Source: a bacterium | GTDB taxonomy: Bacteria; 4484-113; JAFGCY01 | Reading direction: 5' to 3' | NCBI GenBank assembly: GCA_020849855.1 | Contig: JADZFO010000038.1 | Span: forward strand, 108,010-172,009 | Length of the DNA stretch: 64,000 bases | Part shown: positions 3,429-43,382 of the stretch, piece by piece | Layout: each line of letters opens with the position of its first letter | How positions within the stretch are numbered: the first letter of the stretch is position 1 | Position numbers and translations under genes: made by a program | Notes under the pieces: model-generated | Databases searched by the model: none | Seen by the model: the letters and a program-made list of their open reading frames with translations, nothing else | Told to the model about the DNA's origin: nothing

Positions 3429-4377
3429 GGCCGCGCTGAGTCTGCTGCGCGAGGTCAGTGAAGCCCACGGCGGCTGCCTGCTGATTGATGGCCGGCGCGG
3501 CCGCGCGCTGCTGTCGGATACCGCACGCCTGCTGGATGTGTGCAAGGGCCTGCGCCGCGGCGGCTTCACCCGCGCGATTGATTTCACAGCGATGCATGTA
3601 GGGGCGAGTCTTGACTCGCCCTCTTCAACAATGCGAGCATCAGGGAAGGCGGGTCAAGACCCGCCCCTACAGAATCAGGCGGGTCAAGACCCGCCCCTAC
3701 AGAATCAGGCGGGCCAGGACCCGCCACTACAGAATCAGGCAGGTCAGGACCCGCCACTACAGGAAGCGGCGGGCACAGAGGCCCGTTCCACCGAAGACGG
3801 GCCGAGACAAGCTCGGCCCCTACAAAACGACTTCGCCTTCTTCCTGCAGCTGCGGGCGCCGAAGTTCGGGCACAGCGGCATTCTGCTGAAATGGAAGTGG
3901 AGCCTGATTGAGCAGGCCCACCCGAGCCTGAGCCTGGTCTGGGCCTCCTGCGGCCTGGCCGAGCGCGAGATGCTGGAGATGCTGGGCGTCCCCTTCGCCG
4001 GGAATCCCGACCTGCGCCCGCTGCTGCTGGACATGCGCTTCGCCGGCCATCCCCTGCGCCGCGATTTCAAGAGCCCGCCGCCCCAGGACTACGCCAGCGC
4101 CCTGCTGGCGGACCGGCATGAGGCCGGGCTGATCTTTGGCCTGCGGCAGGCGGCGGAGAACAGGGGCACAACTCGGCCCTCAGGTTCCGCTTCCGACAAT
4201 ACAGGCGCATCGACTTCGCTCGACAGTCCCGCGTCCCGAGTCCTGAGTCCTGACGCACAAAAGCGCTCCGCCGAGGCAATGGACTACAGCGCAGAGCTGG
4301 GTATAGGCGAGAAGGGACTCAGGACCCAGGACTCAGGACAGCCCGGAAGCAGCGCGACGGAGGGCACAGCACCATGA
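3418..4377 (+). CDS. NuoC/Nqo5-like (30 kDa subunit) protein with an in-frame repeat insertion (4x GQDPPLQNQA) and a low-complexity C-terminal tail
   Basis: ORF track gives 3241..4377, but its 5' part overlaps nuoB in another frame. Start set at ATG 3418 (MLPEAALSLL), overlapping the nuoB stop. NuoC C-terminal signature W.SL...W.S..W.EREM.EM.GV.F.G.PDLR.LL......GHPLRRDF is present. An inserted segment is encoded by palindromic DNA repeats. Confidence 0.75.
   Translation: MLPEAALSLLREVSEAHGGCLLIDGRRGRALLSDTARLLDVCKGLRRGGFTRAIDFTAMHVGASLDSPSSTMRASGKAGQDPPLQNQAGQDPPLQNQAGQDPPLQNQAGQDPPLQEAAGTEARSTEDGPRQARPLQNDFAFFLQLRAPKFGHSGILLKWKWSLIEQAHPSLSLVWASCGLAEREMLEMLGVPFAGNPDLRPLLLDMRFAGHPLRRDFKSPPPQDYASALLADRHEAGLIFGLRQAAENRGTTRPSGSASDNTGASTSLDSPASRVLSPDAQKRSAEAMDYSAELGIGEKGLRTQDSGQPGSSATEGTAP
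3599..3780. repeat. in-frame palindromic repeat block: GGGGCGAGTCTTGACTCGCCC followed by 4 tandem ~30-bp units each containing the hairpin GGCGGGTC-AA-GACCCGCC
   Basis: Seen directly in the DNA. It is translated within the nuoC-like ORF as VGASLDSP...(AGQDPPLQNQ)x4. The same units recur in the nuoD-like gene, metG and aacS. Confidence 0.8.
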
Positions 4378-5606
4378 CGCTCTCCTCAATCCGCCGCGTT
4401 GAAAAGAGATACGACCCGCTGCTGACCGAGACCATCGTGGTCTCCGTCGGACCGCAGCACCCCTCCCTGGTCAGCCCGGTGCAGCTGCACATCCAGGCCG
4501 ACGGTGAGCTGATCGAGCGCGTCACCGTCGAGCAGGGATTCATGCACCGCGGCATCGAGATGCTGTGCAGCCAGCGCGACTGGGCCGGCTGCGCCGCGCT
4601 GCTTTCCCGCACTGAATGGCTGGCCGGGATGAACGGCCACTTCCTGCTGAGCAGCGCCATCGAGGAGCTTTCCGGCCTTGAAGTGCCGCAGCGCGCCCAG
4701 TTCCTGCGCAGCCTGGTGCTGGAGCTGGGGCGCCTGAGCAGCCACCTGTACTGGTTTGGCGACCTGGGCCTGGAGGTTGGCGCGGTGACGCCGGTCTTCT
4801 GGGCCATGCGCGAGCGCGAGCCGCTGCTGGAGCTGCTGGACATGCTTTCCGGCCACCGCTGGCACGGGGCCTACATCGTCCCAGGCGGGGTCAGCCATGA
4901 GCCGCCGGCGGCCTTCTATCAGCGCCTGCGCGCCTGGCTGCCCCTGATGCGCCGGCGGATCAACTCCTATGAGGAGTACTTCAGCGATAACGCCATCTGG
5001 GTCAACCGCAGCGAGCTGATCGGCGTGCTGGAAACCGACTACGCAATCAAGAACGGGGCCTCCGGCCCGGTGGCGCGGGCCAGCGCGGTGGACTGCGACC
5101 TGCGCCGCGACGCCCCTTATGCCGCCTACGGCGAGCTGAGCTTCAAGGTGCCGCTGGGCGAGTACGGCGACGCCCTCGACCGCTTCCGCGTCCGCTTTAT
5201 GGAAATGCGCGAAAGCATGAACATGGTCGAGCAGTGCCTGGATGCACTGGCCGGGGCCGAGCTTGGGTCCGCCCGGCTTGTAGGGGCGAGTCTTGACTCG
5301 CCCTCTTTAGCAGCAGGTATACAAGGGAAGGCGGGTCAAGACCCGCCACTACAGAATCAGGCGGGTCAAGACCCGCCCATACAAATCCCCGCCGGCGAGG
5401 CCTTTGTGTCGGTCGAAGGGCCGCGCGGCGAGCTGGCGCTGAGCGTCGTTTCCGACGGCGGGCACGGCCCGGCCCGTGTGCACCTGCGCGGGCCGAGCAT
5501 GTACCACCTGCACCTGCTGGACGAGCTTTGCCGCGGCTATCTGCTGGCCGACCTCTTCGTTATCTATGCCAGCCTCGACATCATGGTTGGGGAGGCGGAC
5601 CGATGA
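4374..5606 (+). CDS. NuoD/Nqo4-like (NiFe-hydrogenase large-subunit fold) protein without NiFe cysteines and without the conserved quinone-site His; carries an in-frame palindromic insertion
   Basis: 410 aa; ATGA overlap with nuoC. N-terminal GPQHPS...HRGIE (NuoD-like HRGxEK region) with no RxCGxC. C-terminal SLDIMVGEADR resembles the NuoD end SLDIVFGEVDR, not the hydrogenase DPCxxCxxH. The usual NFGPQHPAAHGVLRL is GPQHPSLVSPVQL (His absent). Insertion ...VGASLDSPSLAAGIQGKAGQDPPLQNQAGQDPPIQ.. at nt 5276-5395. Confidence 0.85.
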   Translation: MTLSSIRRVEKRYDPLLTETIVVSVGPQHPSLVSPVQLHIQADGELIERVTVEQGFMHRGIEMLCSQRDWAGCAALLSRTEWLAGMNGHFLLSSAIEELSGLEVPQRAQFLRSLVLELGRLSSHLYWFGDLGLEVGAVTPVFWAMREREPLLELLDMLSGHRWHGAYIVPGGVSHEPPAAFYQRLRAWLPLMRRRINSYEEYFSDNAIWVNRSELIGVLETDYAIKNGASGPVARASAVDCDLRRDAPYAAYGELSFKVPLGEYGDALDRFRVRFMEMRESMNMVEQCLDALAGAELGSARLVGASLDSPSLAAGIQGKAGQDPPLQNQAGQDPPIQIPAGEAFVSVEGPRGELALSVVSDGGHGPARVHLRGPSMYHLHLLDELCRGYLLADLFVIYASLDIMVGEADR

Positions 5607-5611
5607 GAGAG

Positions 5612-5782
5612 ATGGCTAATGGCAAATGGCTAATGGCTAATGGAGAAGACTGCCGACAAGATGTCGGCGCTCCGTTCGAGACCATCGACGGCGCAATTTG
5701 CCTACCTCCATTTGCCTTTTGCCTTTCCGGGCGCACTCTGTGCGCCCCTACATTAGCCATTAGCCATTCGACATTAGCCATG
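5612..5782. repeat. inverted-repeat (MITE/REP-like) element: ATGGCTAATGGCAAATGGCTAATGGCTAATGG ... CATTAGCCATTAGCCATTCGACATTAGCCAT, containing the REP-like palindrome GGGCGCACTCTGTGCGCCC
   Basis: Direct inspection of the 196-bp gap between the nuoD-like gene and the next gene. The internal palindrome recurs at 53958..54016. A related ATGGCTAATGG fragment is at 10860..10960. Confidence 0.55.
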
Positions 5783-5802
5783 GCCGCGCCGGAGGCAAGG
5801 CC

Positions 5803-6339
5803 GTGAGCATCAACCGCTTTGACAAGTACAAGAACGAGGTGCCGACCGAGGCCGAGCTGGCCGCGCCGAAGTTCCAGGCGGACTTCACACGCCCGCTGCT
5901 GCAGCGGGTCTGGGCCTATTACATGTGGCGCCTGCTGGCGCTGCTGATGTCCATTGCCTGCTTTGTCTGGTATGGCTACTGGTCCGGCAAGGCGGCGATG
6001 GTGGCGCGGGACGACTACCCGAACCTTTACGTTGAGATCAACAATTACCTGGCCAGCCCCTTCAACCACTACTTCGTGGCGCTTTGCGGGATCCTGCTGC
6101 TGGCGATGGCCTTCAGCCCCCTGGGCCTGCGCGGCATGGCCATGCTGGGCAACTGGCAGCTGCTGGTGATCGCCTACTGGGGCGCGCTGGTGGTCTTCCT
6201 GGTCCTGAAGCTGACCGAGCATGTCATCGACTTCGAGGCGCCCTCGGCGCTGAAGGCGGTCTTTTACCCTTATGTGCTGGTGGCCATCGCCCTGAGCTTC
6301 ATGGAGCTGCGCTCGCTGGAAGAAGAGGTGGCCTCATGA
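5803..6339 (+). CDS. hypothetical integral membrane protein (about 4 TM helices) encoded inside the complex-I-like operon
   Basis: 178-aa ORF with hydrophobic segments (LLALLMSIACFVWYGYW, FVALCGILLLAMAF, LLVIAYWGALVVFLVL, YVLVAIALSF). No similarity to a known Nuo subunit recognised. Confidence 0.45.
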   Translation: MSINRFDKYKNEVPTEAELAAPKFQADFTRPLLQRVWAYYMWRLLALLMSIACFVWYGYWSGKAAMVARDDYPNLYVEINNYLASPFNHYFVALCGILLLAMAFSPLGLRGMAMLGNWQLLVIAYWGALVVFLVLKLTEHVIDFEAPSALKAVFYPYVLVAIALSFMELRSLEEEVAS

Positions 6340-6480
6340 GGCGATTGCTGATTGCGGATTGCGGATTGCTGATTGCAAAGAGTGCCTCGCAGGGCAGCAG
6401 CACTGTGCTGCTGACTTCCGCGCGGCTCCGGGAAGTCATCAATCATCAATCATCAGTCAGCAATTGCAGCAAGCGAGGTG
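6340..6480. repeat. second copy of the ATTGCTGATTGC-TIR MITE-like element
   Basis: GATTGCTGATTGCGGATTGCGGATTGCTGATTGC ... TCATCAATCATCAATCATCAGTCAGCAATTGC flanks a GC-rich core. Same TIR family as 2668..2878. Confidence 0.5.
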
Positions 6481-6499
6481 CGACATCCTGAGCACACCC

Positions 6500-15696: not shown

Positions 15697-16413
15697 ATGG
15701 ACAGCGTCCACCCCAGCCTGCGCATCGCCGCCCTGATCAGCGGCAGCGGCTCCACCCTGCTGAACATCCTGCAGCGCATCGCGGACGGCCGCCTGCGCGG
15801 CGTGGAGGTTTGCGGCGTGGCGGCCAGCCGGGACTGCCCGGGCCTGGAGCATGCCCGCGCCTTTGGCATCCCCTGGGTGATTGTGCCGCGCACAGCGCCG
15901 CCGGCCGAGGCCCTGCAGCCGGCGGAGGCCAGCGCCTTCACGGCCGCTTTTGACGCCGCCGAGTTCTCAGAGCGCCTGAGCGCCGAGCTGGACCGCTGGC
16001 AGCCGCAGCTGGTGGTCTGCGCCGGCTTCCTGAGCCTTTACCTGCCTGCGCCGCAGTACCGCCACAAAGTGCTGAACGTGCACCCCGCGCTGTTGCCGGC
16101 CTTCGGCGGGCCGGGGATGTATGGGCAGCGTGTCCACGAAGCCGTGCTGGCGAGCGGGGCAAAGGTCAGCGGCTGCACGGTGCACCTGACGGACGAGCAC
16201 TATGACTCCGGGCCGATCATCGCCCAGCGCACTGTGGCCGTCCTGCCGGATGACACGCCGGAGACGCTGTCAGCGCGGGTGCAGGCAGCGGAGAGGGAGC
16301 TGTACCCCCTGGTGCTGCAGGGCTTTGCCGACGGGCGCATCCGCATCAGTGCGGAGGGCGCGGTGGAGCTGGACCCGCGGGTGCTGACGCAGGAGCCGGG
16401 TGGCGCGGGCTGA
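15697..16413 (+). CDS. purN: phosphoribosylglycinamide formyltransferase
   Basis: 238 aa; N-terminal AALISGSGSTL (GSGSNL-type), HPALLPAFGG (NIHPSLLP-type catalytic His region), and a C-terminal D...L fold typical of PurN. Confidence 0.8.
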   Translation: MDSVHPSLRIAALISGSGSTLLNILQRIADGRLRGVEVCGVAASRDCPGLEHARAFGIPWVIVPRTAPPAEALQPAEASAFTAAFDAAEFSERLSAELDRWQPQLVVCAGFLSLYLPAPQYRHKVLNVHPALLPAFGGPGMYGQRVHEAVLASGAKVSGCTVHLTDEHYDSGPIIAQRTVAVLPDDTPETLSARVQAAERELYPLVLQGFADGRIRISAEGAVELDPRVLTQEPGGAG

Positions 16414-32805: not shown

Positions 32806-35457
32806 TTATTGCGGCCTGAGCAGCACATTGTTCAATTCTTCGTCATAACCCGAGCTGAGGGGCAGGCCCGTGCCATCGATCAGACTCCAGAGCGAAAGCG
32901 GCTGCATGCACTCACTGACCCAGTCGTCACTCTCAGCCGGCTCCTCGACCAGGGCCGCGCAGTGGATGTTAACGCTGTTGTTGTAGTTATTGAGCCAAAT
33001 GCTGTACTGCACAACCAGCTTGCCGCCTACCAATGCTGTGGCATTCAGGCCAACGTCACCGCCAAGTGGCTTTGCAATCGTATAGTCTGCCCAGTCGCTG
33101 CTGTCGTCTGGCTCGGACTGCGCGGATTCCCAGTGAAACAGGTCAGCGTTGCTCTCGGCAATGAAGTGTGGATGACCATTAATGACATGCAGGGTATCGG
33201 TCACCCATTTCTCGCCTTCGACGGCCTGGGCCACCAGATGCTCCAGCCAATCGTCGCCGCTGTCTGGGTTACTCTGGACCGCGCGGATGTAGTGAAGCTC
33301 TTGCCCGCCGCCTGCAATGAAGGCTGGCCGCCCGGAAATGTCAACTATCGTTGTGTAGTCATCAAAGTAGAACGCCGCCGGCAGGCTCAGGGCGGTACTA
33401 AACTGCCAGTCCGATTGATCCTGCGGCTGAGAGCTGAGCGCGGCGGCGTAGCTAAGCGCGCCGGAGCCTGTCTGGTTATGCTTGAACATGAGTGCAGGAG
33501 TGCCGTTGACTACTGATAGCCGCAGTCCGCTGTAACTCTCACCTGGGGGCAGCGACTGAACTTCATGGCTTGTCCAGTCCTGCGGGCTGTCAGGCTGGGC
33601 TGAGCCGGCCAGCAACAGGTTGATGGAGTCCTGGGTCTGCCAGGCGATCGCGGGCCTGCCCTCATGCTCGGCGAGATAAAGCCAAGAACTGCCCAGGGCC
33701 ACATTGCCCGGATCGTGGGCCAGAGTGGTGATCCAGTCGTCCGGGCTGTCCGGCGTGGGCTCGACCGCCTGCACCAGGTAGATGGAATCGAAGGCTTCGC
33801 TCTTGCCCTCCATGGGGCCAACTGCCGCGAAAGCCGGGCGGCCGCCGACGGAGACCAGACGGGTGAAGGACAGATCATCGAGCATGTCAATCATTGTCCA
33901 ACGCGAGCGGTAACCAAGTTTCAGCGCGGTCGGCACGCTTTCATCAAGCCCTGCAGCCGACACTACATAGTAGTTGTGTGGCAGCAGATCCTGGGTTTGC
34001 AGGTCGGTGTAGTCGGCATCGCTGCTGACTCCAAGGAGAGTGTCATCGCTGCTATCACCACTGTCGATGTAGACTTTGTAGGCCACCGCGCCAGCTACAG
34101 GATTCCAGTTGAGCTCCACGCGGTCGGGGAGACCTTGTGAAACCTGCAGGCCGATTGGCGGGCTCAGCTCGCGGCGGCCGGTGTCCACCGGACTCCAGTG
34201 CGGGCTCGTGTCAGCGCCAAGCACGGCCCTGACCCGATACTCATAGCGGGTACGGTGCAGACTTTCCTTGCCCGGTGGAGAATTGAAGAAGTGGCTGAAT
34301 TTAGGCGAGGCATCGACGGTCTCGGCAAGCGGCACCCATAGCACCGGCTCACCACCATCGGCGTTTCGATACTCAATCTGATAGGCCTCGGCCTCTGGCA
34401 CAGCGGTCCAGACCAGGTCAATTCGGTCACCCAGCGTCGCAGGTTGCCATGGGTCGCTGTTGTCGTACTCGTCATAGGTGGCCGCAAGGAAGTCGACATC
34501 CCCGAGTGTTCGCAGACCGGCGACGCCAAATCCTGCCTCGCCGGTCAGCCCAACCCGCTGCAGGCGTAGACGGTAATAGACATTAACACCATAGGGCAGC
34601 AGGTTGGCCGCGCCGACTGCTTCCGAGTGCACATCGCTGTAGCTGTTCACGCCGGGCGGCAGGGTGGCCAGAGGCTCAAAGATGTAGGGCGGCTGCTGGG
34701 AGACGCTGCGCTCCAGTACGACGGCGTCGTACTGCAGGCCAGGATAACTGGCCGCCGGGTCATCCCAGCTCAGCTCAATGCGCCCGGGGTAGTCTCCGTA
34801 GCTCGCTGTCAGCCCCTGCGGGACCGGAAGCGCCGCATCCAGTTCCAGGCTGAGCCGCGAGACGCTGGCCTGCTGGGCGCCGTCGATCAGCACAATGCAG
34901 AACAGCGAGCCGTCAGGGCTGAGGGGCTCAAGCCCGGCAGCCAGGCTGAGCGTGTTTTCCGGCAGAGGCAGCGCCAGCCGGTACCAGCGCCAGCTCTGGC
35001 TGGCATAATCGCTGACAGCCAGCCAGGCCCTTTGCGGAAGTGGCTGGGCCAGCTCCAGCTTCAGGCTGAAGGTGGCGTCCTGCGGGCTGAGACCGCTGAA
35101 CTCGAACAAGGCCCAGCCAGGCTGGCCAGGGCTGGAGCTGAGCAGGGCAGTCTTACTGAAGGGGTTCACCATGGTGCTGGGGGCGGCTACGCTGAACTGC
35201 GATCCCGGCAGCACTATGGACCCCATGGCAAGCGCGGTGTGGGGCAGGCCGGAGCCGCCAGCTGGCAGCGCCGGAAGGCCGGACTGCTGCGGCAGGGCTG
35301 GAAGCTCAAGCCGCGGCGCGGCAGGGTCGACAAGTGGGGCCGCGGAATCAGTCGATGTTGTGACCGGCGCAGTCAAGGCGCCCGCGCCGCAGGATGACAG
35401 CATTAACGCGCAGAAGAGCAAAGCCAGACGCTGTGCGCCGTATCCCCACCTGACCAT
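32806..35457 (-). CDS. large surface lipoprotein (signal/lipobox, unknown conserved N-terminal module, FN3-like middle, beta-propeller-like C-terminal repeats)
   Basis: 883 aa; MVRWGYGAQRLALLFCALMLSSCGAGA lipobox. N-terminal module motif AWLAVSDYASQSWRWYRL is shared with the 43555..44997 and 58303..60210 proteins. Repeated P.DS.DDW / SxxDW blades in the C-terminal half. Gene is bracketed by the direct repeats. Confidence 0.55.
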   Translation of the reverse strand: MVRWGYGAQRLALLFCALMLSSCGAGALTAPVTTSTDSAAPLVDPAAPRLELPALPQQSGLPALPAGGSGLPHTALAMGSIVLPGSQFSVAAPSTMVNPFSKTALLSSSPGQPGWALFEFSGLSPQDATFSLKLELAQPLPQRAWLAVSDYASQSWRWYRLALPLPENTLSLAAGLEPLSPDGSLFCIVLIDGAQQASVSRLSLELDAALPVPQGLTASYGDYPGRIELSWDDPAASYPGLQYDAVVLERSVSQQPPYIFEPLATLPPGVNSYSDVHSEAVGAANLLPYGVNVYYRLRLQRVGLTGEAGFGVAGLRTLGDVDFLAATYDEYDNSDPWQPATLGDRIDLVWTAVPEAEAYQIEYRNADGGEPVLWVPLAETVDASPKFSHFFNSPPGKESLHRTRYEYRVRAVLGADTSPHWSPVDTGRRELSPPIGLQVSQGLPDRVELNWNPVAGAVAYKVYIDSGDSSDDTLLGVSSDADYTDLQTQDLLPHNYYVVSAAGLDESVPTALKLGYRSRWTMIDMLDDLSFTRLVSVGGRPAFAAVGPMEGKSEAFDSIYLVQAVEPTPDSPDDWITTLAHDPGNVALGSSWLYLAEHEGRPAIAWQTQDSINLLLAGSAQPDSPQDWTSHEVQSLPPGESYSGLRLSVVNGTPALMFKHNQTGSGALSYAAALSSQPQDQSDWQFSTALSLPAAFYFDDYTTIVDISGRPAFIAGGGQELHYIRAVQSNPDSGDDWLEHLVAQAVEGEKWVTDTLHVINGHPHFIAESNADLFHWESAQSEPDDSSDWADYTIAKPLGGDVGLNATALVGGKLVVQYSIWLNNYNNSVNIHCAALVEEPAESDDWVSECMQPLSLWSLIDGTGLPLSSGYDEELNNVLLRPQ

Positions 35458-35568: not shown

Positions 35569-35668
35569 GGGTTATGAGCTTCACTTGCACATACAATGAA
35601 GCATGGATACAGGCCCGGCGCAGGGGACACATGAACAGGCCGCGCAGCAGCTTGAGCAGCTGCTGGCC
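35569..35668. repeat. direct repeat copy B (intact promoter and 5' end of the TPR gene)
   Basis: See copy A. Contains TACAAT 5 nt upstream of the ATG at 35603. Confidence 0.8.
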
Positions 35669-36229
35669 GACGAGCAGCAGCGGCGCAGCCAGGGCCTGCA
35701 GCTTGACCCCGACCAGGTCCTGCGGCGCGGCAACCTGCTGGCCTTCCTTGGCCGCTTCGAGGATGCCCTGATGGCCTACAGCGAGGCCGCCGCCCTGCGC
35801 ACAGCGCTTGGCCTGGGGCCTGACCCCGACATTGAGATGAACCGCGGCAACTGCTATGACAGCATGGGCCGCAGCGCCGACGCCGCGGCCTGCTATACCC
35901 GCGCCGAGCAGCAGCAGGCCATCGGCCCGCCGGACTGGCGCCTGGCGGCCAACCGCGGCTCCAGCCACTACGGGGCGCGGCGCTTCATGGAGGCCCGGCG
36001 CGAGTTTGAGCTGGCCCAGAGCATCCGCGCGCAGCAGGGCCAGCAGCCCGATCCGGAGCTGTGCATCTTTCAGGCCATCGTGGACATGGAACTGGGCGAC
36101 AAGGCCGCCGCCTGCCGCCATGCCCGCCTGGCCCGCGACATCTACAGCGCCTCACAGCCCGCCGGCGAGCTGATCGAGGTGCCGCAGGTACTGGTGGCCC
36201 TGCTGCAGGAATGCAGCGATAAGTTCTAA
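35603..36229 (+). CDS. TPR-repeat protein
   Basis: 208 aa; three or four 34-residue helical repeats with small/large residue periodicity (e.g. GNLLAFLGRFEDALMAYSEAAAL, RGNCYDSMGRSADAAACYTRAE, RGSSHYGARRFMEARREFELAQ). Confidence 0.55.
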   Translation: MDTGPAQGTHEQAAQQLEQLLADEQQRRSQGLQLDPDQVLRRGNLLAFLGRFEDALMAYSEAAALRTALGLGPDPDIEMNRGNCYDSMGRSADAAACYTRAEQQQAIGPPDWRLAANRGSSHYGARRFMEARREFELAQSIRAQQGQQPDPELCIFQAIVDMELGDKAAACRHARLARDIYSASQPAGELIEVPQVLVALLQECSDKF

Positions 36230-36277
36230 GCCCGCAGCCCTGCGGCCGCAGCCAGACGCACTCTGCCCTGCCGGGAG

Positions 36278-38047
36278 CTAATGCGCCTGAACATGCGCAT
36301 GCTCTTCTTCCTGCGCGTGCTCGTCTTCGTGCCCATGCTCTTCTTCATGCCCATGCTCGTCTTCATGCTCGTGCCCATGCCCATGAGCGTGATCATGCTC
36401 GTGCTCTTCCTCGCTGTGGCCCGGCACCTCAAAGCTGGCGTCACCGGCGGGATGGTGGTGGCCGCCGATGCTCCAGTCGATGCCCAGCCAGAGGCTGCCA
36501 ACCCTGCGGCCCAGGTGCTGGGCGTCGTCGTGGTTGTACTGCAGGCGCACCCGCGTCGCCTCGCTGGGGTACCAGGCCAGCAGCGGGCTGATGCGGCTGC
36601 GCTCGTCGCGCAGGGGGTCGTGCTCGCTGCCGCCCACGCTTTCGCCGCTGCTGCCGGCAAACTCATAGCGCAGGCCGGCGGCCCACTGCGGGCGGAAGCC
36701 GTAGAGCAGCTGGCTGTAGGCCGCGCTGTCACGCAGGCTCAGAGCCGGCAGGTCTATCGGGTTTGCCAGGTCGCTGTCATCCTGCAGGGCCGCAGCATCA
36801 TAGCTGCGCAGGGCGTACTCGCTTTCCCAGAGCACAAAGGGCCATTCGCCCGGACAGGGCTGGTAGAGATAGCTCAGGTCCGCGCCATAGATGCTGGTTC
36901 GGCTGCCGGCACCGCTGCCATTGGGCCCCCACATGCCAGACAGGCCCAGGCGCCAGCGCGAGCTCTCCGACTGCCAGGTGTTCTCCCAGCGCAGTGTGGC
37001 GAGCAGGGCGGCTGAATCGTCCAGCTGCGGGCGCAGGCCCGGGCCGAGGCTTTCATAGCGCTCTTCCAGCAGCAGCAGCAGCGGGTCTTCCTCCTCTTCC
37101 TCCCCGCCGTGCTCCTCTTCCTCGCCATGGCTGTGGCCGGCGCCGCGGAAGCTGACCATGCTCTCGTCGGCGGCATTCTGCACACCGATGACCAGGCGGC
37201 TTTGCCAGTCTTCGTCCTCGTCCCAGTCCTCGCCGCTGTTCTTGTTCCAGGCCAGGGCCACACCACCGGCGCGGCCGCCTTCGGAGCCGAAGAAGCGGCT
37301 GACCAGCAGCTGCTGGTCCATCCAGCTCCAGCTGTGCGGGTGGCGCGCATTGTGCAGGCCGAAATCTGTATAGAACTGGCCGGCCTTCAGCTCGAAGCCG
37401 CGCCCGAGCTGGCTGAGCAGGTAGGCCTCCTCCAGCTCGGCGCCTTCCTCCCCAAAGCTGATGTTCAGCTGGCCGCGGGCGCGCGCTGTGACCCAGCCGC
37501 CGAGGCTGAGCTCGGCAATCGGCGTGCTGAAACCCTGGGCGCGCGGGTCATGGTGGCCGGCCTGCAGAGCTTCCAGCTCGGCGTCCTCCGCATCGCTGAA
37601 GCCCAGGTAGGACATCACGTTCAGGCCCAGCTCCAGCGGCAGGTCGTGGAAGTGCTCATGCCATGTGGCCGGCGGCTCGCAGTGCGTGGCCTCTGCCTGC
37701 TGCGGTGCCAGGGCGACCTCGACGCTGTCGCCGGCATGCGCCTCATGCGCCGCATGCCCTTCATGCCCGGCACCTTCAGCATGCTCATGCTCAGCATGTC
37801 CTGCTTGCTCTGCATGCCCGGCATTCTCGGCATGGGCCTGACCCGCTTCATGCTGGTGCCCGGCCTCATGCTCATCCTCAGCCGCAGCCGCGGTGAAGAG
37901 AGCGCTGCCCGGTACCACGCCCAGGGTCAGAACTAGGATCAGGCCCAGGAGCAGGCACAGCAGTCCATAGGCCCTGCTTGCCTTGACAAGGCCCGGAAAA
38001 CTACGCGGCTGGCAGCGCGGGCGAAAGGTGATGCACGGATTGCTCAT
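36278..38047 (-). CDS. His-rich metal-binding protein, probable outer-membrane/porin-like, predicted Zur/Fur-regulated
   Basis: 589 aa; signal peptide; N-terminal (HEAGHQHEAGQAHAENAGHAEQAGHAEHEHAEGAGHEGHAAHEAH) and C-terminal (HSEEEHEHDHAHGHGHEHEDEHGHEEEHGHEDEH) His/Glu-rich blocks. Middle region has alternating-polarity beta-strand-like stretches. Start codon abuts a Fur-box palindrome. Divergent from a Fur-family gene. Confidence 0.5.
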   Translation of the reverse strand: MSNPCITFRPRCQPRSFPGLVKASRAYGLLCLLLGLILVLTLGVVPGSALFTAAAAEDEHEAGHQHEAGQAHAENAGHAEQAGHAEHEHAEGAGHEGHAAHEAHAGDSVEVALAPQQAEATHCEPPATWHEHFHDLPLELGLNVMSYLGFSDAEDAELEALQAGHHDPRAQGFSTPIAELSLGGWVTARARGQLNISFGEEGAELEEAYLLSQLGRGFELKAGQFYTDFGLHNARHPHSWSWMDQQLLVSRFFGSEGGRAGGVALAWNKNSGEDWDEDEDWQSRLVIGVQNAADESMVSFRGAGHSHGEEEEHGGEEEEEDPLLLLLEERYESLGPGLRPQLDDSAALLATLRWENTWQSESSRWRLGLSGMWGPNGSGAGSRTSIYGADLSYLYQPCPGEWPFVLWESEYALRSYDAAALQDDSDLANPIDLPALSLRDSAAYSQLLYGFRPQWAAGLRYEFAGSSGESVGGSEHDPLRDERSRISPLLAWYPSEATRVRLQYNHDDAQHLGRRVGSLWLGIDWSIGGHHHPAGDASFEVPGHSEEEHEHDHAHGHGHEHEDEHGHEEEHGHEDEHAQEEEHAHVQAH

Positions 38048-38077
38048 GATAATGATAATAGCTTCTCATTATCATGA
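38044..38077. promoter_or_regulatory. Fur/Zur-box-like operator: perfect 12-bp inverted repeat TCATGATAATGA-N10-TCATTATCATGA (contains GATAATGATAAT)
   Basis: AT-rich palindrome in GC-rich DNA, at the 5' end of the His-rich protein gene and 250 bp upstream of the fur-family gene. Matches the classic Fur-box GATAATGATAATCATTATC. Confidence 0.6.
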
Positions 38078-38331
38078 TCGTCAAGCGATCTTAAGCGTGC
38101 AGACATATCAAACTGTTTGAGACAAAGGAACCTGCCGGCAGCGTCTTCAGGGCGTCTCACGGGCAGCACTGACACGGAACGGATCCTGCAGGGCCGCTGC
38201 CCTGCGGGTCCTTTTTTGAATTCATCCAGCACAGTAGAGACTGCAATCATGCTGGCGGCCCTGACCTGCTGGCTTAGTAAGCGGCTCTGCTGTCTGCAAG
38301 CCGCGCGGCGCAGCCCCGGTATAATCGGCCT

Positions 38332-38712
38332 GTGATGCAGCGCAACACCCGCCAGCGCGAGGTGATCCGCCGCGCCTTCGAGCGCGCGGCGCGGCCCCTG
38401 TCGCCGCAGCAGCTTCTGGCCCTGGCGCAGCAGGAGATGCCCAGCCTGGGCCTGGCGACGGTCTACCGCAGCCTCAAGGCCCTGAGCGAGGAAGGCTGGC
38501 TCACCACCGTGGAGCTGCCCGGCTCGATCCAGCACTATGAGATCGCCGGCCAGGCGCACCACCACCACTTCCACTGCCGGGCCTGCGACGGCGTGTTCGA
38601 GGTCCATGGCTGCCCGCCGCGGATCGACCAGCTCACCCCGCGGGGCTTCAAGCTGGAACAGCATGAGATCGTGCTCTACGGCCTCTGCGCCGACTGCAGC
38701 CGGGCCGCCTGA
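38332..38712 (+). CDS. zur: Fur-family metalloregulator (Zur-like)
   Basis: 126 aa; DNA-binding helix region LATVYRSLKAL (TVYRTL motif); metal sites HHHHFHC..CG and C-terminal C..C. TATAAT at 38320-38325 lies 6 nt upstream of the GTG at 38332 (9 nt from the in-frame ATG at 38335). Confidence 0.8.
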   Translation: MMQRNTRQREVIRRAFERAARPLSPQQLLALAQQEMPSLGLATVYRSLKALSEEGWLTTVELPGSIQHYEIAGQAHHHHFHCRACDGVFEVHGCPPRIDQLTPRGFKLEQHEIVLYGLCADCSRAA

Positions 38713-42068: not shown

Positions 42069-43382
42069 GTGCTACTCGCCGTTTACAACGCGCTGATCAG
42101 CGTGCTCTGGCCGCTGCTCTACCTTTACCCGCCCTTTCGGGGCACGATCCGCGCGCGCCTGGGGCACTTTGAGCTGGGCAGCTATGACCCCGCCGCGCCG
42201 GGGCTCAAAGTGCTGGTCAACGCAGTATCCGCCGGCGAGGTTGTCGCGATCAGCTCCTTTATCCGCGAGCTGAAGCGCCGGCGGCCGGACTGCCAGGTGG
42301 TCCTGCTGACCACCACCGACAGCGGGCAGGAGATGGCGCGGCAGAAGCTGGCCGATGCTGTGTCCCTGGCCTGTTATTTCCCCCTCGCCGACCTGCCCTT
42401 TGTGGTCAAGCGCTACCTGGATAAGCTGCGGCCGGAGCTTTACATCTCCTGCGAGTCCGAGCTGTGGCCCAACATCCAGAGCCAGTGCCGGCGGCGCGGG
42501 ATACCGGTGGCCCTGGTCAACGCGCGCCTGTACCTGCATAACAAGACCGGCCTGCGCGGCGCTGTCGTGCGCGGCCTGTATCAGCTTTGCGACCTGATTG
42601 TCTGCCAGGACGAAGACCAGCGCGGGAACTTCCTGAAGTTCGGCCTGCCGGATCAGGTGCTTGCCGTGAGCGGCAACACCAAGTTCGACTTCGAGGTTGA
42701 GGCCTGGGACGAGTGGCGCCTGGCCCAGTGGCGCGAGCTTTTCGCACTGGACCCGCAGCAGCCGGTGCTGGTGGCCGGCTCGACCCACCCCGGGGAGGAA
42801 GCGCTGATCTTCAGCGCCGTGCAGGAGCTGCGCGGCCGCGGAATGCATCTGCAGCTTGTCCTGGCGCCGCGGCACATTGAGCGCATCAGCGAGGTGCAGC
42901 AGAGCGCGCTGCAGGCCGGCTTCCGCCCGCGCCTGCTGAGCCAGCTGCAGGCGCCGGAGGAACACCACGCCAGCCTTGGGGCGCACCACCGCCACGACCT
43001 GGTGCTGGTGGACAGATACGGCGTGCTGCTGGACTGCTACCGCCTGGCGGATCTGGTGCTCATGGGCGGCACCTTCCATCCGAAGGTGGGCGGGCACAAC
43101 ATCCTGGAGGCGACGATCCTGGGCAAGCCGGTGCTGGCCGGGCCGCATGTCTACAGCATCCTGGCCCAGACAGCGATGCTGGAGCGCGCCGAGGCCCTGC
43201 TGCGCGCGGACTGCGACATCTCCAGCGCCGACGGCCCGGCCGCGCTGGCTTCCGCGCTGCAGACCCCGCTGCAGCATCCGGCCCGCAGCGCGGAGCTAGG
43301 GGAGCGCGCGCGCAAGCTGACCCTGGCCAACCAGGGCTCGGCAAAGCGCGCGGTGGACGCAGTGCTGAAGCTGATCCGCTAG
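42069..43382 (+). CDS. waaA: 3-deoxy-D-manno-octulosonic acid (Kdo) transferase
   Basis: 437 aa; LKVLVNAVSAGEVVAISSFIREL (WIHAVSVGE-type motif), CESELWPNI (ETELWPN motif), C-terminal GGTFHPKVGGHNILEATILGKPVLAGPHVYS (glycosyltransferase GT30 C-domain). GTG start with GATAAT 8 nt upstream. Confidence 0.85.
   Translation: MLLAVYNALISVLWPLLYLYPPFRGTIRARLGHFELGSYDPAAPGLKVLVNAVSAGEVVAISSFIRELKRRRPDCQVVLLTTTDSGQEMARQKLADAVSLACYFPLADLPFVVKRYLDKLRPELYISCESELWPNIQSQCRRRGIPVALVNARLYLHNKTGLRGAVVRGLYQLCDLIVCQDEDQRGNFLKFGLPDQVLAVSGNTKFDFEVEAWDEWRLAQWRELFALDPQQPVLVAGSTHPGEEALIFSAVQELRGRGMHLQLVLAPRHIERISEVQQSALQAGFRPRLLSQLQAPEEHHASLGAHHRHDLVLVDRYGVLLDCYRLADLVLMGGTFHPKVGGHNILEATILGKPVLAGPHVYSILAQTAMLERAEALLRADCDISSADGPAALASALQTPLQHPARSAELGERARKLTLANQGSAKRAVDAVLKLIR

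What the first reader, a model, noticed from the sequence alone, without database searches (positions are those of the whole stretch)
36278..38712. Predicted zinc/iron-responsive module: His-rich outer-membrane-like protein, Fur-box palindrome, divergent Fur/Zur regulator
The 34-bp AT-rich element TCATGATAATGA-N10-TCATTATCATGA (a near-perfect classic Fur box) abuts the start of a 589-aa protein. Both termini of that protein are HxH/HE-rich (about 40 His in 90 residues) and its centre looks beta-barrel-like. A Fur-family gene with the Zur-type HHHHFHC..CG metal site lies 250 bp away and is leaderless. It is probably a metal-scavenging porin/metallophore receptor under Zur control. The His-rich architecture on a putative barrel is unusual.
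Basis: partly seen in the sequence, partly recalled or inferred. Interest (0 to 1): 0.5.

Follow-up and report, generated by a model that had tools for sequence, protein, structure and literature searches.

The report
Zinc-regulated outer-membrane porin with histidine tails
This is a metal-repressed gene for an outer-membrane pore from an uncharacterised protein family that nearly always sits next to zinc-import genes, so it is probably the unidentified outer-membrane step of zinc uptake in many environmental bacteria; this copy also carries unusual histidine-rich tails.

Summary
A 34-bp AT-rich palindrome (38044-38077) overlaps the promoter and start codon of a 589-aa gene (36278-38047, minus strand). 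A Fur-family gene (38332-38712) lies 254 bp away.

Only 6 of 122 sequences (the query, listed also as P0001, plus P0002-P0006) carry His-rich tails, which tandem repeats encode. By porin topology both tails should be periplasmic.

A 65%-identical regulator heads a zur-znuABC operon. The same palindrome type lies beside related regulators and ZnuA-family genes in other phyla.

Best reading: zinc-loaded Zur blocks a leaderless promoter, and under zinc shortage the acidic porin admits Zn2+.

Caveats:
- In the closest relatives the regulator gene has no porin next to it.
- One similar palindrome serves a Mn/Fe-type transporter.
- The window has no znuABC.
- No binding or transport was tested.

I rate it a new variant of a known kind, of moderate interest.

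The parts
36278..38047 (-). Gene for the 589-aa outer-membrane porin. It is identical to NCBI MCC7478769.1, 'hypothetical protein IT575_09970 [bacterium]'.
   Evidence: ORF. Identical database entry. No Pfam or NCBIfam hit. 646 homologues. Contains the family motifs HPHSWSWMDQ and RLQYNHDDA that served as search patterns.
37883..38047 (-). N-terminal export signal region (residues 1-55): a long positively charged start, then a hydrophobic helix at residues 20-42.
   Evidence: Helix 20-42 in the AlphaFold2 model. I found no alternative in-frame start before the hydrophobic segment when reading the sequence.
37712..37882 (-). N-terminal His/Glu/Ala-rich segment (residues 56-112, 12 His). It takes the place of the coiled coil found in most family members. 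Predicted periplasmic.
   Evidence: Composition. Low-confidence helix at residues 58-92. Coiled-coil N-termini of homologues. Encoded by degenerate 9/18-nt tandem repeats at 37731-37834.
36464..37636 (-). 16-strand beta-barrel (residues 138-528). It is strongly acidic (63 D+E against 28 K+R) and carries conserved His/Asp/Glu motifs in loops L1 (HDP) and L3 (HPHxWxWxDQ).
37007..37174 (-). Long loop L4 (residues 292-347) containing GHSHGEEEEHGGEEEEED. By strand counting it is extracellular. It could be a surface metal-capture loop.
   Evidence: Sequence and composition. 23 of 88 aligned family members have 3 or more His in this loop. The side of the membrane is inferred from the strand order.
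36281..36463 (-). C-terminal His/Glu-rich tail (residues 529-589, 19 His, 16 Glu). It extends beyond the position where most homologues end in Tyr or Phe. Predicted periplasmic.
   Evidence: only the query (also listed as P0001) and P0002-P0006, 6 of 122 sequences, have a long His-rich tail, and 107 of 115 others end in Y or F. The model is disordered here. Encoded by 18/30/36-nt tandem repeats at 36292-36404.
38044..38077 (.). 34-bp palindromic operator: 12-bp perfect arms with a 10-bp spacer, or 15-4-15 with one mismatch. It is built of GATAAT-type hexamers.
   Evidence: The same 9-N10-9 core lies between Fur-family genes and ZnuA, ZnuC or receptor genes in other phyla.
38055..38084 (-). Predicted porin promoter: -35 TTGACG (38084-38079), 18-nt spacer, -10 TATTAT (38060-38055), then 7 nt to the ATG. 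The mRNA would be leaderless. The operator covers about -30 to +4.
   Evidence: Promoter scan: 10 of 12 matches, with 3 sites found against 0.1 expected from shuffles. There is no Shine-Dalgarno sequence. Several other genes in the window show the same layout.
38320..38325 (+). -10 box TATAAT of the regulator gene, 6 nt before the GTG and 9 nt before the ATG. This implies a leaderless or near-leaderless mRNA.
   Evidence: Sequence. The same box and spacing are conserved in L161 and L158-L160.
38332..38712 (+). Fur-family metalloregulator, 125-126 aa, probably Zur. It has four Cys (CxxC twice) and an HHHHFHC motif.
   Evidence: PF01475 at E=3e-21. 65% identical to the regulator that heads a FUR-ZnuA-ZnuC-ZnuB operon. 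44-45% identical to the regulators next to the same palindrome type.

Best explanation
This is a zinc-starvation-inducible outer-membrane zinc porin under Fur-family (Zur-type) repression.

Shown:
- The 589-aa protein folds as a 16-strand OprP/DcaP-like porin.
- It belongs to an uncurated family whose genes are almost always followed directly by a zinc-type (three-His) ZnuA gene.
- A unique 34-bp palindrome overlaps the spacer, the -10 box, the predicted transcription start and the ATG of a promoter-like site.
- A Fur-family gene lies 254 bp away, and a 65%-identical relative of it heads a zur-znuABC operon.

Inferred:
- With zinc sufficient, Zn-loaded regulator binds the palindrome, probably as two dimers because the arm centres are 22 bp apart, and blocks RNA polymerase.
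- With zinc scarce, the repressor leaves and a leaderless mRNA is made.
- The exported protein forms a trimeric, strongly acidic, cation-selective channel. Its conserved His/Asp/Glu residues in loops L1 and L3 favour Zn2+.
- A His/Glu-rich surface loop may concentrate the metal at the cell surface.
- The two repeat-encoded His-rich tails, which are specific to this small subclade, lie in the periplasm. There they act as a zinc sink or hand-off point for a ZnuA-type binding protein encoded elsewhere in the genome.
For: - Diderm host: a Kdo transferase gene lies at 42069-43382.
- Family context: the order porin-ZnuA-ABC_tran-ABC-3 occurs in three distant genomes, two with a divergent FUR gene and one with ZIP and CDF genes as well. 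ZnuA follows directly on the same strand in 57 of 61 metagenome loci.
- Zinc type: 67 of 69 binding proteins in the set, references included, have the His-His-His ligand set. Their best solved relatives are Synechocystis and E. coli ZnuA.
- Closest homologue: P0002 has the layout FUR <-> porin -> ZnuA, with a His-rich loop in ZnuA and the operator GATAATGATAGGCTATTATC.
- Operator: unique and non-random, overlapping TTGACG-N18-TATTAT-N7-ATG.
- Same 9-N10-9 core elsewhere: next to FUR and ZnuC (Burkholderiales), ZnuA (Trueperaceae), FUR and a ZnuA-family gene (Chloroflexia), and FUR and a receptor-like barrel (Eremiobacterota). Their regulators share GHHHHFxCxxC and the ATVYR helix.
- Regulator: a 65%-identical protein is the first gene of a FUR-ZnuA-ZnuC-ZnuB operon.
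- Charge: the barrel has a net charge of -35, against a family mean of -22.
Against: - No znuABC and no other copy of the palindrome occur in the 64-kb window. Unlike 93% of its family, this porin gene stands alone.
- In the closest relatives the regulator gene (75-87% identical) sits next to cdsA, the 883-aa fn3 gene or an unrelated membrane protein. No porin is called next to it, and the two with DNA held (L161, L158) show no palindrome. Adjacency here is therefore recent and could be coincidental.
- The 65%-identical Zur-like regulator has a different operator, ATTGAGA-N6-TCTCAAT. That operator type is absent from the window.
- One locus with the same palindrome type (Chloroflexia L010) serves a His-His-Glu, Mn/Fe-type binding protein. 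The operator type is therefore not zinc-specific.
- By sequence the regulator scores best against Campylobacter Fur. It reaches no NCBIfam equivalog cut-off, and by my reading of the alignment it lacks the site-2 Cys of Mycobacterium Zur.
- Channel selectivity, the side of the membrane on which the tails lie, and trimer formation are inferred, not computed.
Confidence: 0.62

Rival explanations
1. The module responds to iron or manganese. The palindrome would be the operator of the genome's true Fur or Mur, encoded elsewhere. The porin would import Fe2+, Mn2+ or another divalent metal, and the adjacent Fur-family gene would be an unrelated neighbour.
For: - The element equals the classical Fur-box consensus split by 7 bp (sequence).
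- The regulator's best solved relative is Campylobacter Fur.
- Adjacency of regulator and porin is not conserved in close relatives.
- The same palindrome type precedes a His-His-Glu (Mn/Fe-type) binding protein in Chloroflexia.
Against: - The porin family is coupled to three-His ZnuA genes in 57 of 61 loci.
- The closest homologue has a Fur-box-like operator together with a ZnuA that carries a His-rich loop.
- A 65%-identical regulator sits in a zur-znuABC operon.
- GATAAT-type boxes also precede zinc-type ZnuA genes in Trueperaceae.
Confidence: 0.17
2. The protein is mainly a metal buffer or resistance factor. The His-rich tails would bind excess Ni, Co, Zn or Cu in the periplasm, with the barrel serving only as a membrane anchor. 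Expression would respond to metal excess rather than shortage.
For: - 31 His and many Glu lie in disordered tails made by repeat expansion.
- Linkage to znuA has been lost in this copy.
- DUF2946-type leader genes in related loci also occur with efflux systems (PMC4176598, PMC9973294).
Against: - The barrel is highly conserved with the uptake-linked family, including all invariant channel residues.
- The operator overlaps the -10 box and the transcription start, which is the layout of a repressor released on metal loss in Fur-family systems (PMC6103462).
- No efflux genes lie nearby.
Confidence: 0.08
3. The palindrome is not an operator. It would be a chance AT-rich inverted repeat or the scar of a mobile element at the edge of an inserted segment (TPR gene plus porin gene).
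For: - Relative to the closest relative, the segment 35.6-38.3 kb is an insertion between the fn3 gene and the regulator gene.
- The palindrome sits at one end of that segment.
Against: - Shuffles gave 0 matches.
- The element is precisely positioned over a strong promoter-like site.
- Its hexamer composition is that of Fur-family operators.
- It recurs next to Fur-family and ZnuA genes in unrelated high-GC genomes.
- No transposase or matching repeat was seen at the other end.
Confidence: 0.03

Closest known systems
OprP/OprO phosphate-specific porins of Pseudomonas aeruginosa (PDB 2o4v)
   Different: No match to the Porin_O_P Pfam model. The barrel here is strongly acidic (net -35) and has conserved His/Asp/Glu, in place of the arginine ladder of the anion channel. 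The gene neighbours are zinc importers, not phosphate genes.
DcaP of Acinetobacter baumannii (PDB 6eus)
   Different: In the window's protein the coiled coil is replaced by a His/Glu/Ala-rich repeat segment and a C-terminal His tail is added. Sequence identity is only 11%.
ZnuD, ZnuK and ZnuL: Zur-regulated TonB-dependent zinc receptors (Neisseria, Caulobacter; PMC2895646, PMC4176598)
   Same: Outer-membrane component of a Zur-controlled zinc uptake route that feeds ZnuABC.
   Different: Those are 22-strand, plug-containing, energy-dependent receptors. This protein is a 16-strand passive porin with no plug and no TonB-dependent receptor Pfam match.
Zur and Fur operators and repression by promoter occlusion (E. 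coli Zur on the znuABC promoter, PDB 4mtd; review PMC6103462)
   Same: An AT-rich palindrome overlaps core promoter elements. Its size fits two dimers, as for E. coli Zur on the znuABC promoter.
   Different: The sequence is of the GATAAT (Fur-box) type with arms 22 bp apart centre to centre. It is not the enterobacterial or actinobacterial Zur box. It overlaps the start codon because the mRNA is leaderless.
MspD porin of Mycobacterium smegmatis, with an accessory role in zinc homeostasis (PMC13098993)
   Same: A non-TonB porin implicated in zinc passage across an outer membrane alongside ZnuABC.
   Different: From my own knowledge, MspD is an MspA-type general porin of the mycomembrane with an unrelated fold. 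I read only the abstract listed.

Membership tests
Fur family of metalloregulators (PF01475) | Match to the family profile above the curated cut-off | tested here: met
   76.1 bits against a cut-off of 23.1, E=3.3e-21, covering residues 4-116.
Fur family of metalloregulators (PF01475) | Structural zinc site made of two CxxC pairs, and a His cluster before the first pair | tested here: met
   HHHHFHCRAC and CADC are present and invariant in alignment A2.
Zur (zinc uptake regulator) subgroup | Curated equivalog profile for Zur | tested here: not met
   NF008646 (E. coli-type Zur) scores 32.8 bits against a cut-off of 167. Fur and PerR profiles score higher, but none reaches its cut-off.
Zur (zinc uptake regulator) subgroup | Genetic association with znuABC or other zinc-starvation genes | tested here: inconclusive
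   A 65%-identical protein heads a FUR-ZnuA-ZnuC-ZnuB operon, and 44-45%-identical ones lie next to ZnuA or ZnuC genes. The window itself has no znuABC, and the nearest relatives lack any zinc gene beside the regulator.
Zur (zinc uptake regulator) subgroup | Zinc-dependent binding to the operator | not testable with these tools
   Needs gel-shift or footprinting with purified protein with and without Zn and TPEN.
Classical 19-bp Fur box (GATAATGATAATCATTATC) | Contiguous match to the consensus | tested here: not met
   By my own count on the sequence, the best contiguous match is 13 of 19. The consensus is reproduced exactly only if 7 bp (AGCTTCT, 38060-38066) are removed.
Phosphate-selective porin O/P family (PF07396) | Match to the family profile | tested here: not met
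   No Pfam family at E<=0.01. Homologues give only weak BBP2 (PF07642) hits below the cut-off.
Phosphate-selective porin O/P family (PF07396) | 16-strand porin fold | tested here: met
Phosphate-selective porin O/P family (PF07396) | Basic (Arg/Lys) channel lining for anions | tested here: inconclusive
   The barrel has 63 acidic and 28 basic residues, which argues against an anion channel. Which residues line the pore was not computed.
TonB-dependent receptors (ZnuD-like) | N-terminal plug domain, TonB box and 22-strand barrel | tested here: not met
Uncurated ZnuA-linked porin family (this work; at least 566 clusters at 50% identity) | Conserved motifs GGxHDP, LELEEA, HPHxWxWxDQ and RLQYNxDxA | tested here: met
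   All are present in the query and invariant or nearly invariant among 88 sequences.
Uncurated ZnuA-linked porin family (this work; at least 566 clusters at 50% identity) | ZnuA gene immediately downstream | tested here: not met
   This holds for 57 of 61 loci. Here the next gene is a convergent TPR gene, and no ZnuA occurs in the window.
Uncurated ZnuA-linked porin family (this work; at least 566 clusters at 50% identity) | Upstream small ORF ending in R[AG]PP (DUF2946/CruR-like) | tested here: not met
   Present in 37 of 53 loci. It is absent here: the promoter abuts the ATG and tblastn found nothing.
Uncurated ZnuA-linked porin family (this work; at least 566 clusters at 50% identity) | C-terminal aromatic residue as the last residue | tested here: not met
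   107 of 115 short-tailed members end in Y or F. The query continues for about 50 residues after the corresponding ...ASF.

The most novel reading that the evidence does not exclude
An uncharacterised OprP-like porin family would be the dedicated, zinc-selective outer-membrane entry step of the ZnuABC pathway in many environmental diderm phyla. It would often be controlled twice: by a Zur operator and by a CruR-like leader peptide ending in the RAPP ribosome-arrest motif, previously tied to copper. The window's copy would represent a subclade that replaced the trimerising coiled coil with metal-binding His repeats and added a periplasmic His tail, turning the porin itself into a zinc sink that passes metal to ZnuA.
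Probability: 0.4. Interest if true: 0.72.

Novelty: new variant of a known kind. Interest (0 to 1): 0.55.

Why it matters
How zinc crosses the outer membrane is settled only for bacteria that have TonB-dependent receptors such as ZnuD. Elsewhere the literature assumes diffusion through non-specific porins (PMC3323870, PMC4176598).

A porin family that is followed by a zinc-type znuA gene in 93% of loci, yet has no Pfam or NCBIfam model and is annotated only as 'hypothetical protein', is a concrete candidate for that missing step. It can be tested directly by bilayer electrophysiology, liposome swelling, or knockouts in a cultivable host.

The His-tailed variant in this window adds a testable idea: a porin that also holds metal on its periplasmic side.

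The locus also gives clean examples of operator-over-start-codon repression of leaderless mRNAs in an uncultivated lineage.

Tried and rejected
- Rfam scan of 37950-38400 gave only chance-level hits.
- Folding 38080-38220 as an RNA gave z=-1.28, so nothing beyond the terminator hairpin is notable.
- No credible small ORF lies between the palindrome and the regulator gene.
- ZepA, the cyanobacterial Zur-regulated zinc exoprotein (PMC10957091), was read and rejected. It is a beta-sandwich PEP-CTERM protein unrelated to this barrel.
- A profile search of the family against PDB sequences gave only coiled-coil noise.
- The genome-contig scan for the palindrome did not include the window's own genome, so its regulon could not be listed. 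Most of the 69 hits are in AT-rich genomes and I took them as chance without checking them.
- The afdb50 fold library was unavailable.
- Literature searches for a zinc porin, a Zur-regulated porin, or OprP together with znuA found no description of this family.
- The intergenic region does not align with close relatives beyond the regulator's -10 box.
- The TPR genes next to the porin here and in L006 are not homologous.
- The TTGAGA-type Zur box of the 65%-identical regulator is absent from the window.
- Simple regular-expression searches found no shared operator type across the 53 metagenome loci. Operators appear to be lineage-specific.
- Taxonomy from MetRS stayed unresolved. The nearest named relatives are labelled 'bacterium', Planctomycetales, Planctomycetota or Myxococcales at 60-64% identity.
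Full report
**Observation**

The sequence features are as described.
- A 589-aa ORF runs from 38047 down to 36278 on the minus strand.
- The element TCATGATAATGA-N10-TCATTATCATGA occupies 38044-38077. It is unique in the window, and none of 100 dinucleotide-preserving shuffles produced a match even with three mismatches allowed.
- The repeat finder extends the arms to 15 nt (14/15 complementary) with only 4 nt between them. It also finds a second register shifted by 6 bp, which I read as consistent with arrays of GATAAT hexamers in Fur-family operators.
- Read by eye, the element is the 19-bp Fur-box consensus (recalled from memory) interrupted by 7 bp. It is not a contiguous near-perfect Fur box.
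- The termini are His-rich but less so than stated: 12 His in residues 56-112 and 19 in residues 529-589.
- Both tails are encoded by degenerate tandem repeats of 9-36 nt.
- The Fur-family gene at 38332-38712 matches PF01475 at E=3e-21.

**What the protein is**

It has no Pfam or NCBIfam match and no sequence relative among solved structures.

A Kdo transferase gene at 42069-43382 indicates a lipopolysaccharide-bearing outer membrane.

The barrel is strongly acidic, with 63 D+E against 28 K+R and a family mean net charge of -22. The invariant residues include HDP in loop 1, ELEE in strand 4 and HPHxWxWxDQ in loop 3. Loop 3 is the constriction loop in general porins. That identification rests on established knowledge plus my strand counting; the pore lining itself was not computed.

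**Family and context**

Homologues are numerous: 646 in the word-indexed search and 566 clusters at 50% identity with E<=1e-10. Every homologue that carries a source name is called 'hypothetical protein'. They come from MAGs labelled Phycisphaerales, Binatia, Gammaproteobacteria, Deltaproteobacteria, Thermodesulfobacteriota and Methylomirabilis.

In three distant genomes the gene is followed by ZnuA, an ABC ATPase and an ABC-3 permease. Two of these have a divergent Fur-family gene, and one also has ZIP and CDF genes.

In 80 metagenome loci, a ZnuA gene follows directly on the same strand in 57 of the 61 loci that have enough downstream DNA. In an alignment of 69 binding proteins, reference sequences included, 67 have the His-His-His ligand set. 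That set is typical of zinc-specific cluster A-I binding proteins (established knowledge of ZnuA against PsaA/MntC). The Chloroflexia protein has Glu at the third position and one cut-off protein has Arg. The best solved relatives of the linked proteins are Synechocystis and E. coli ZnuA.

The family is therefore linked to zinc import, not to iron or manganese.

**How the window's copy differs**
- It stands alone. The next gene is a convergent TPR gene, and the window contains no znuABC.
- It lacks the small upstream ORF found in 37 of 53 family loci.
- Most members start with a coiled coil and end in Tyr or Phe (107 of 115). The query (also listed as P0001) and its five closest homologues P0002-P0006, at 43-46% identity, instead have a His-rich N-terminal segment and a His-rich tail beyond the terminal aromatic position.
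- With 16 strands, both termini lie on the periplasmic side (inference from porin topology). The tails therefore cannot scavenge metal outside the cell. The His/Glu-rich loop L4 (residues 292-347) is the candidate surface site, and 23 of 88 members have at least 3 His there.
- The closest homologue, P0002, keeps the full arrangement: a Fur-family gene, 38 bp, the porin, then a ZnuA with a His-rich loop. Its operator is GATAATGATAGGCTATTATC.

**Regulation**

On the minus strand the scan finds TTGACG-N18-TATTAT, ending 7 nt before the ATG. Three promoter-like sites were found in the scanned region, against 0.1 expected from shuffles. No Shine-Dalgarno sequence is present. The palindrome spans about -30 to +4, so a bound repressor would exclude RNA polymerase.

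The regulator gene has TATAAT 6 nt before its GTG. That box and spacing are conserved in relatives whose upstream DNA is otherwise unalignable. At least ten other genes in the window show a -10-like hexamer 5-10 nt before the start and no Shine-Dalgarno sequence. Leaderless mRNAs therefore seem common in this organism.

**Which regulator binds the palindrome**

Evidence for the neighbouring gene:
- Proteins 44-45% identical to it share GHHHHFxCxxC and the ATVYR helix. They lie beside the same 9-N10-9 palindrome in Burkholderiales (next to an ABC ATPase operon), Chloroflexia (next to a ZnuA-family gene) and Eremiobacterota (next to a receptor-like barrel). The same palindrome also precedes a zinc-type ZnuA in Trueperaceae.
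- A 65%-identical protein is the first gene of a FUR-ZnuA-ZnuC-ZnuB operon.

Evidence against:
- That 65%-identical regulator has a different operator, ATTGAGA-N6-TCTCAAT, shared with a Phycisphaerales porin-znuABC operon.
- The Chloroflexia binding protein is of the Mn/Fe type.
- The regulator's best solved relative is Campylobacter Fur.
- In the nearest relatives (regulator 87%, 78% and 75% identical) the gene lies next to the 883-aa fn3 gene, an unrelated membrane protein, or cdsA. No porin is called next to it, and the two with DNA held show no palindrome. The TPR gene, the porin gene and the palindrome therefore look like an insertion beside a pre-existing regulator gene.

I put the Zur reading at about 0.6 and a Fur/Mur reading at about 0.17.

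**Comparison with known systems and novelty**

Known Zur-controlled outer-membrane components are TonB-dependent receptors (PMC2895646, PMC4176598, PMC6103462). Reviews state that zinc otherwise enters through non-specific porins (PMC3323870, PMC4176598). Searches of the paper library found no description of a znuA-linked OprP-like porin, although subscription journals are not covered.

The module works like a substrate-specific porin under Fur-family repression. It fails the membership tests for Porin_O_P (profile), for TonB-dependent receptors (plug) and for E. coli-type Zur (equivalog score). I rate it a new variant of a known kind. The family-level link to ZnuA is the more interesting result, and the His-tailed, stand-alone copy in this window is an atypical member of that family.

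Noticed in passing
Related loci: L005 107-487, L006 2568-2951, uncalled ORFs in L001 (about 7600-7890), L002 (about 7500-7890) and L004 (about 7490-7890), and 37 of 53 metagenome loci L076-L155: A small ORF lies directly upstream of most porin-znuA operons. It has an N-terminal membrane helix, a His cluster, a CxxC motif and a C-terminal R[AG]PP. Some copies reach the DUF2946 (PF11162) cut-off. DUF2946/CruR proteins are copper-sensing leader peptides that act through RAPP ribosome arrest (PMC9426467, PMC9973294). Here the same device heads zinc-uptake operons, which suggests a zinc-sensing version. The window has none.
   Followed up: partly
window 38185-38217 (+): A strong terminator-like hairpin (10-bp stem, 8 G-C pairs, then TTTTTT) lies on the plus strand between the palindrome and the regulator gene, with no gene upstream of it on that strand. 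The palindrome also reads as a weak symmetric promoter on the plus strand. A Zur-controlled RNA of about 130 nt, or an insulator for the regulator gene, is possible. There is no Rfam hit, the fold z-score is -1.28, and the region is not conserved in relatives.
   Followed up: partly
window 35603-38250, compared with L161 and the P0125 contig: In close relatives the regulator gene directly follows cdsA (RRF-UppS-CdsA-FUR) or faces the 883-aa fn3 gene. In the window the TPR gene, the porin gene and the palindrome lie between them, so this segment looks like a lineage-specific insertion.
   Followed up: partly
window-wide, e.g. starts at 15697, 20510(-), 25994(-), 35603, 39977, 46506, 60308 and 63052(-): Many first genes of operons have a TANNNT hexamer 5-10 nt before the start codon and no Shine-Dalgarno sequence, whereas genes inside operons have GGAG-type sites. 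Leaderless translation appears common in this uncultivated lineage.
   Followed up: partly
window 32806-35457 (-): An 883-aa secreted-looking protein with one weak fibronectin type III match and otherwise no Pfam domain. A 43%-identical homologue occupies the same position in the closest relative (L161). Function unknown.
   Followed up: no
L002 about 7460-7490 and L162 about 5945-5970: A second operator type, ATTGAGA-N6-TCTCAAT, precedes a Phycisphaerales porin-znuABC operon and a zur-znuABC operon in another genome. It is a candidate Zur box for those lineages.
   Followed up: partly
L010 6158-6185 and L070 4986-5013 (one Chloroflexia MAG): Two near-identical copies of FUR <-> palindrome <-> ZnuA-family gene occur on two contigs of one MAG. 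The binding protein has a His-His-Glu (Mn/Fe-type) site. The same palindrome type therefore serves a different metal there.
   Followed up: partly
window 4374-15667 (+): A NADH dehydrogenase (complex I) gene cluster. Its NuoH-like subunit (6359-8314) is unusually long at 651 aa, with the NADHdh domain covering only residues 268-545.
   Followed up: no
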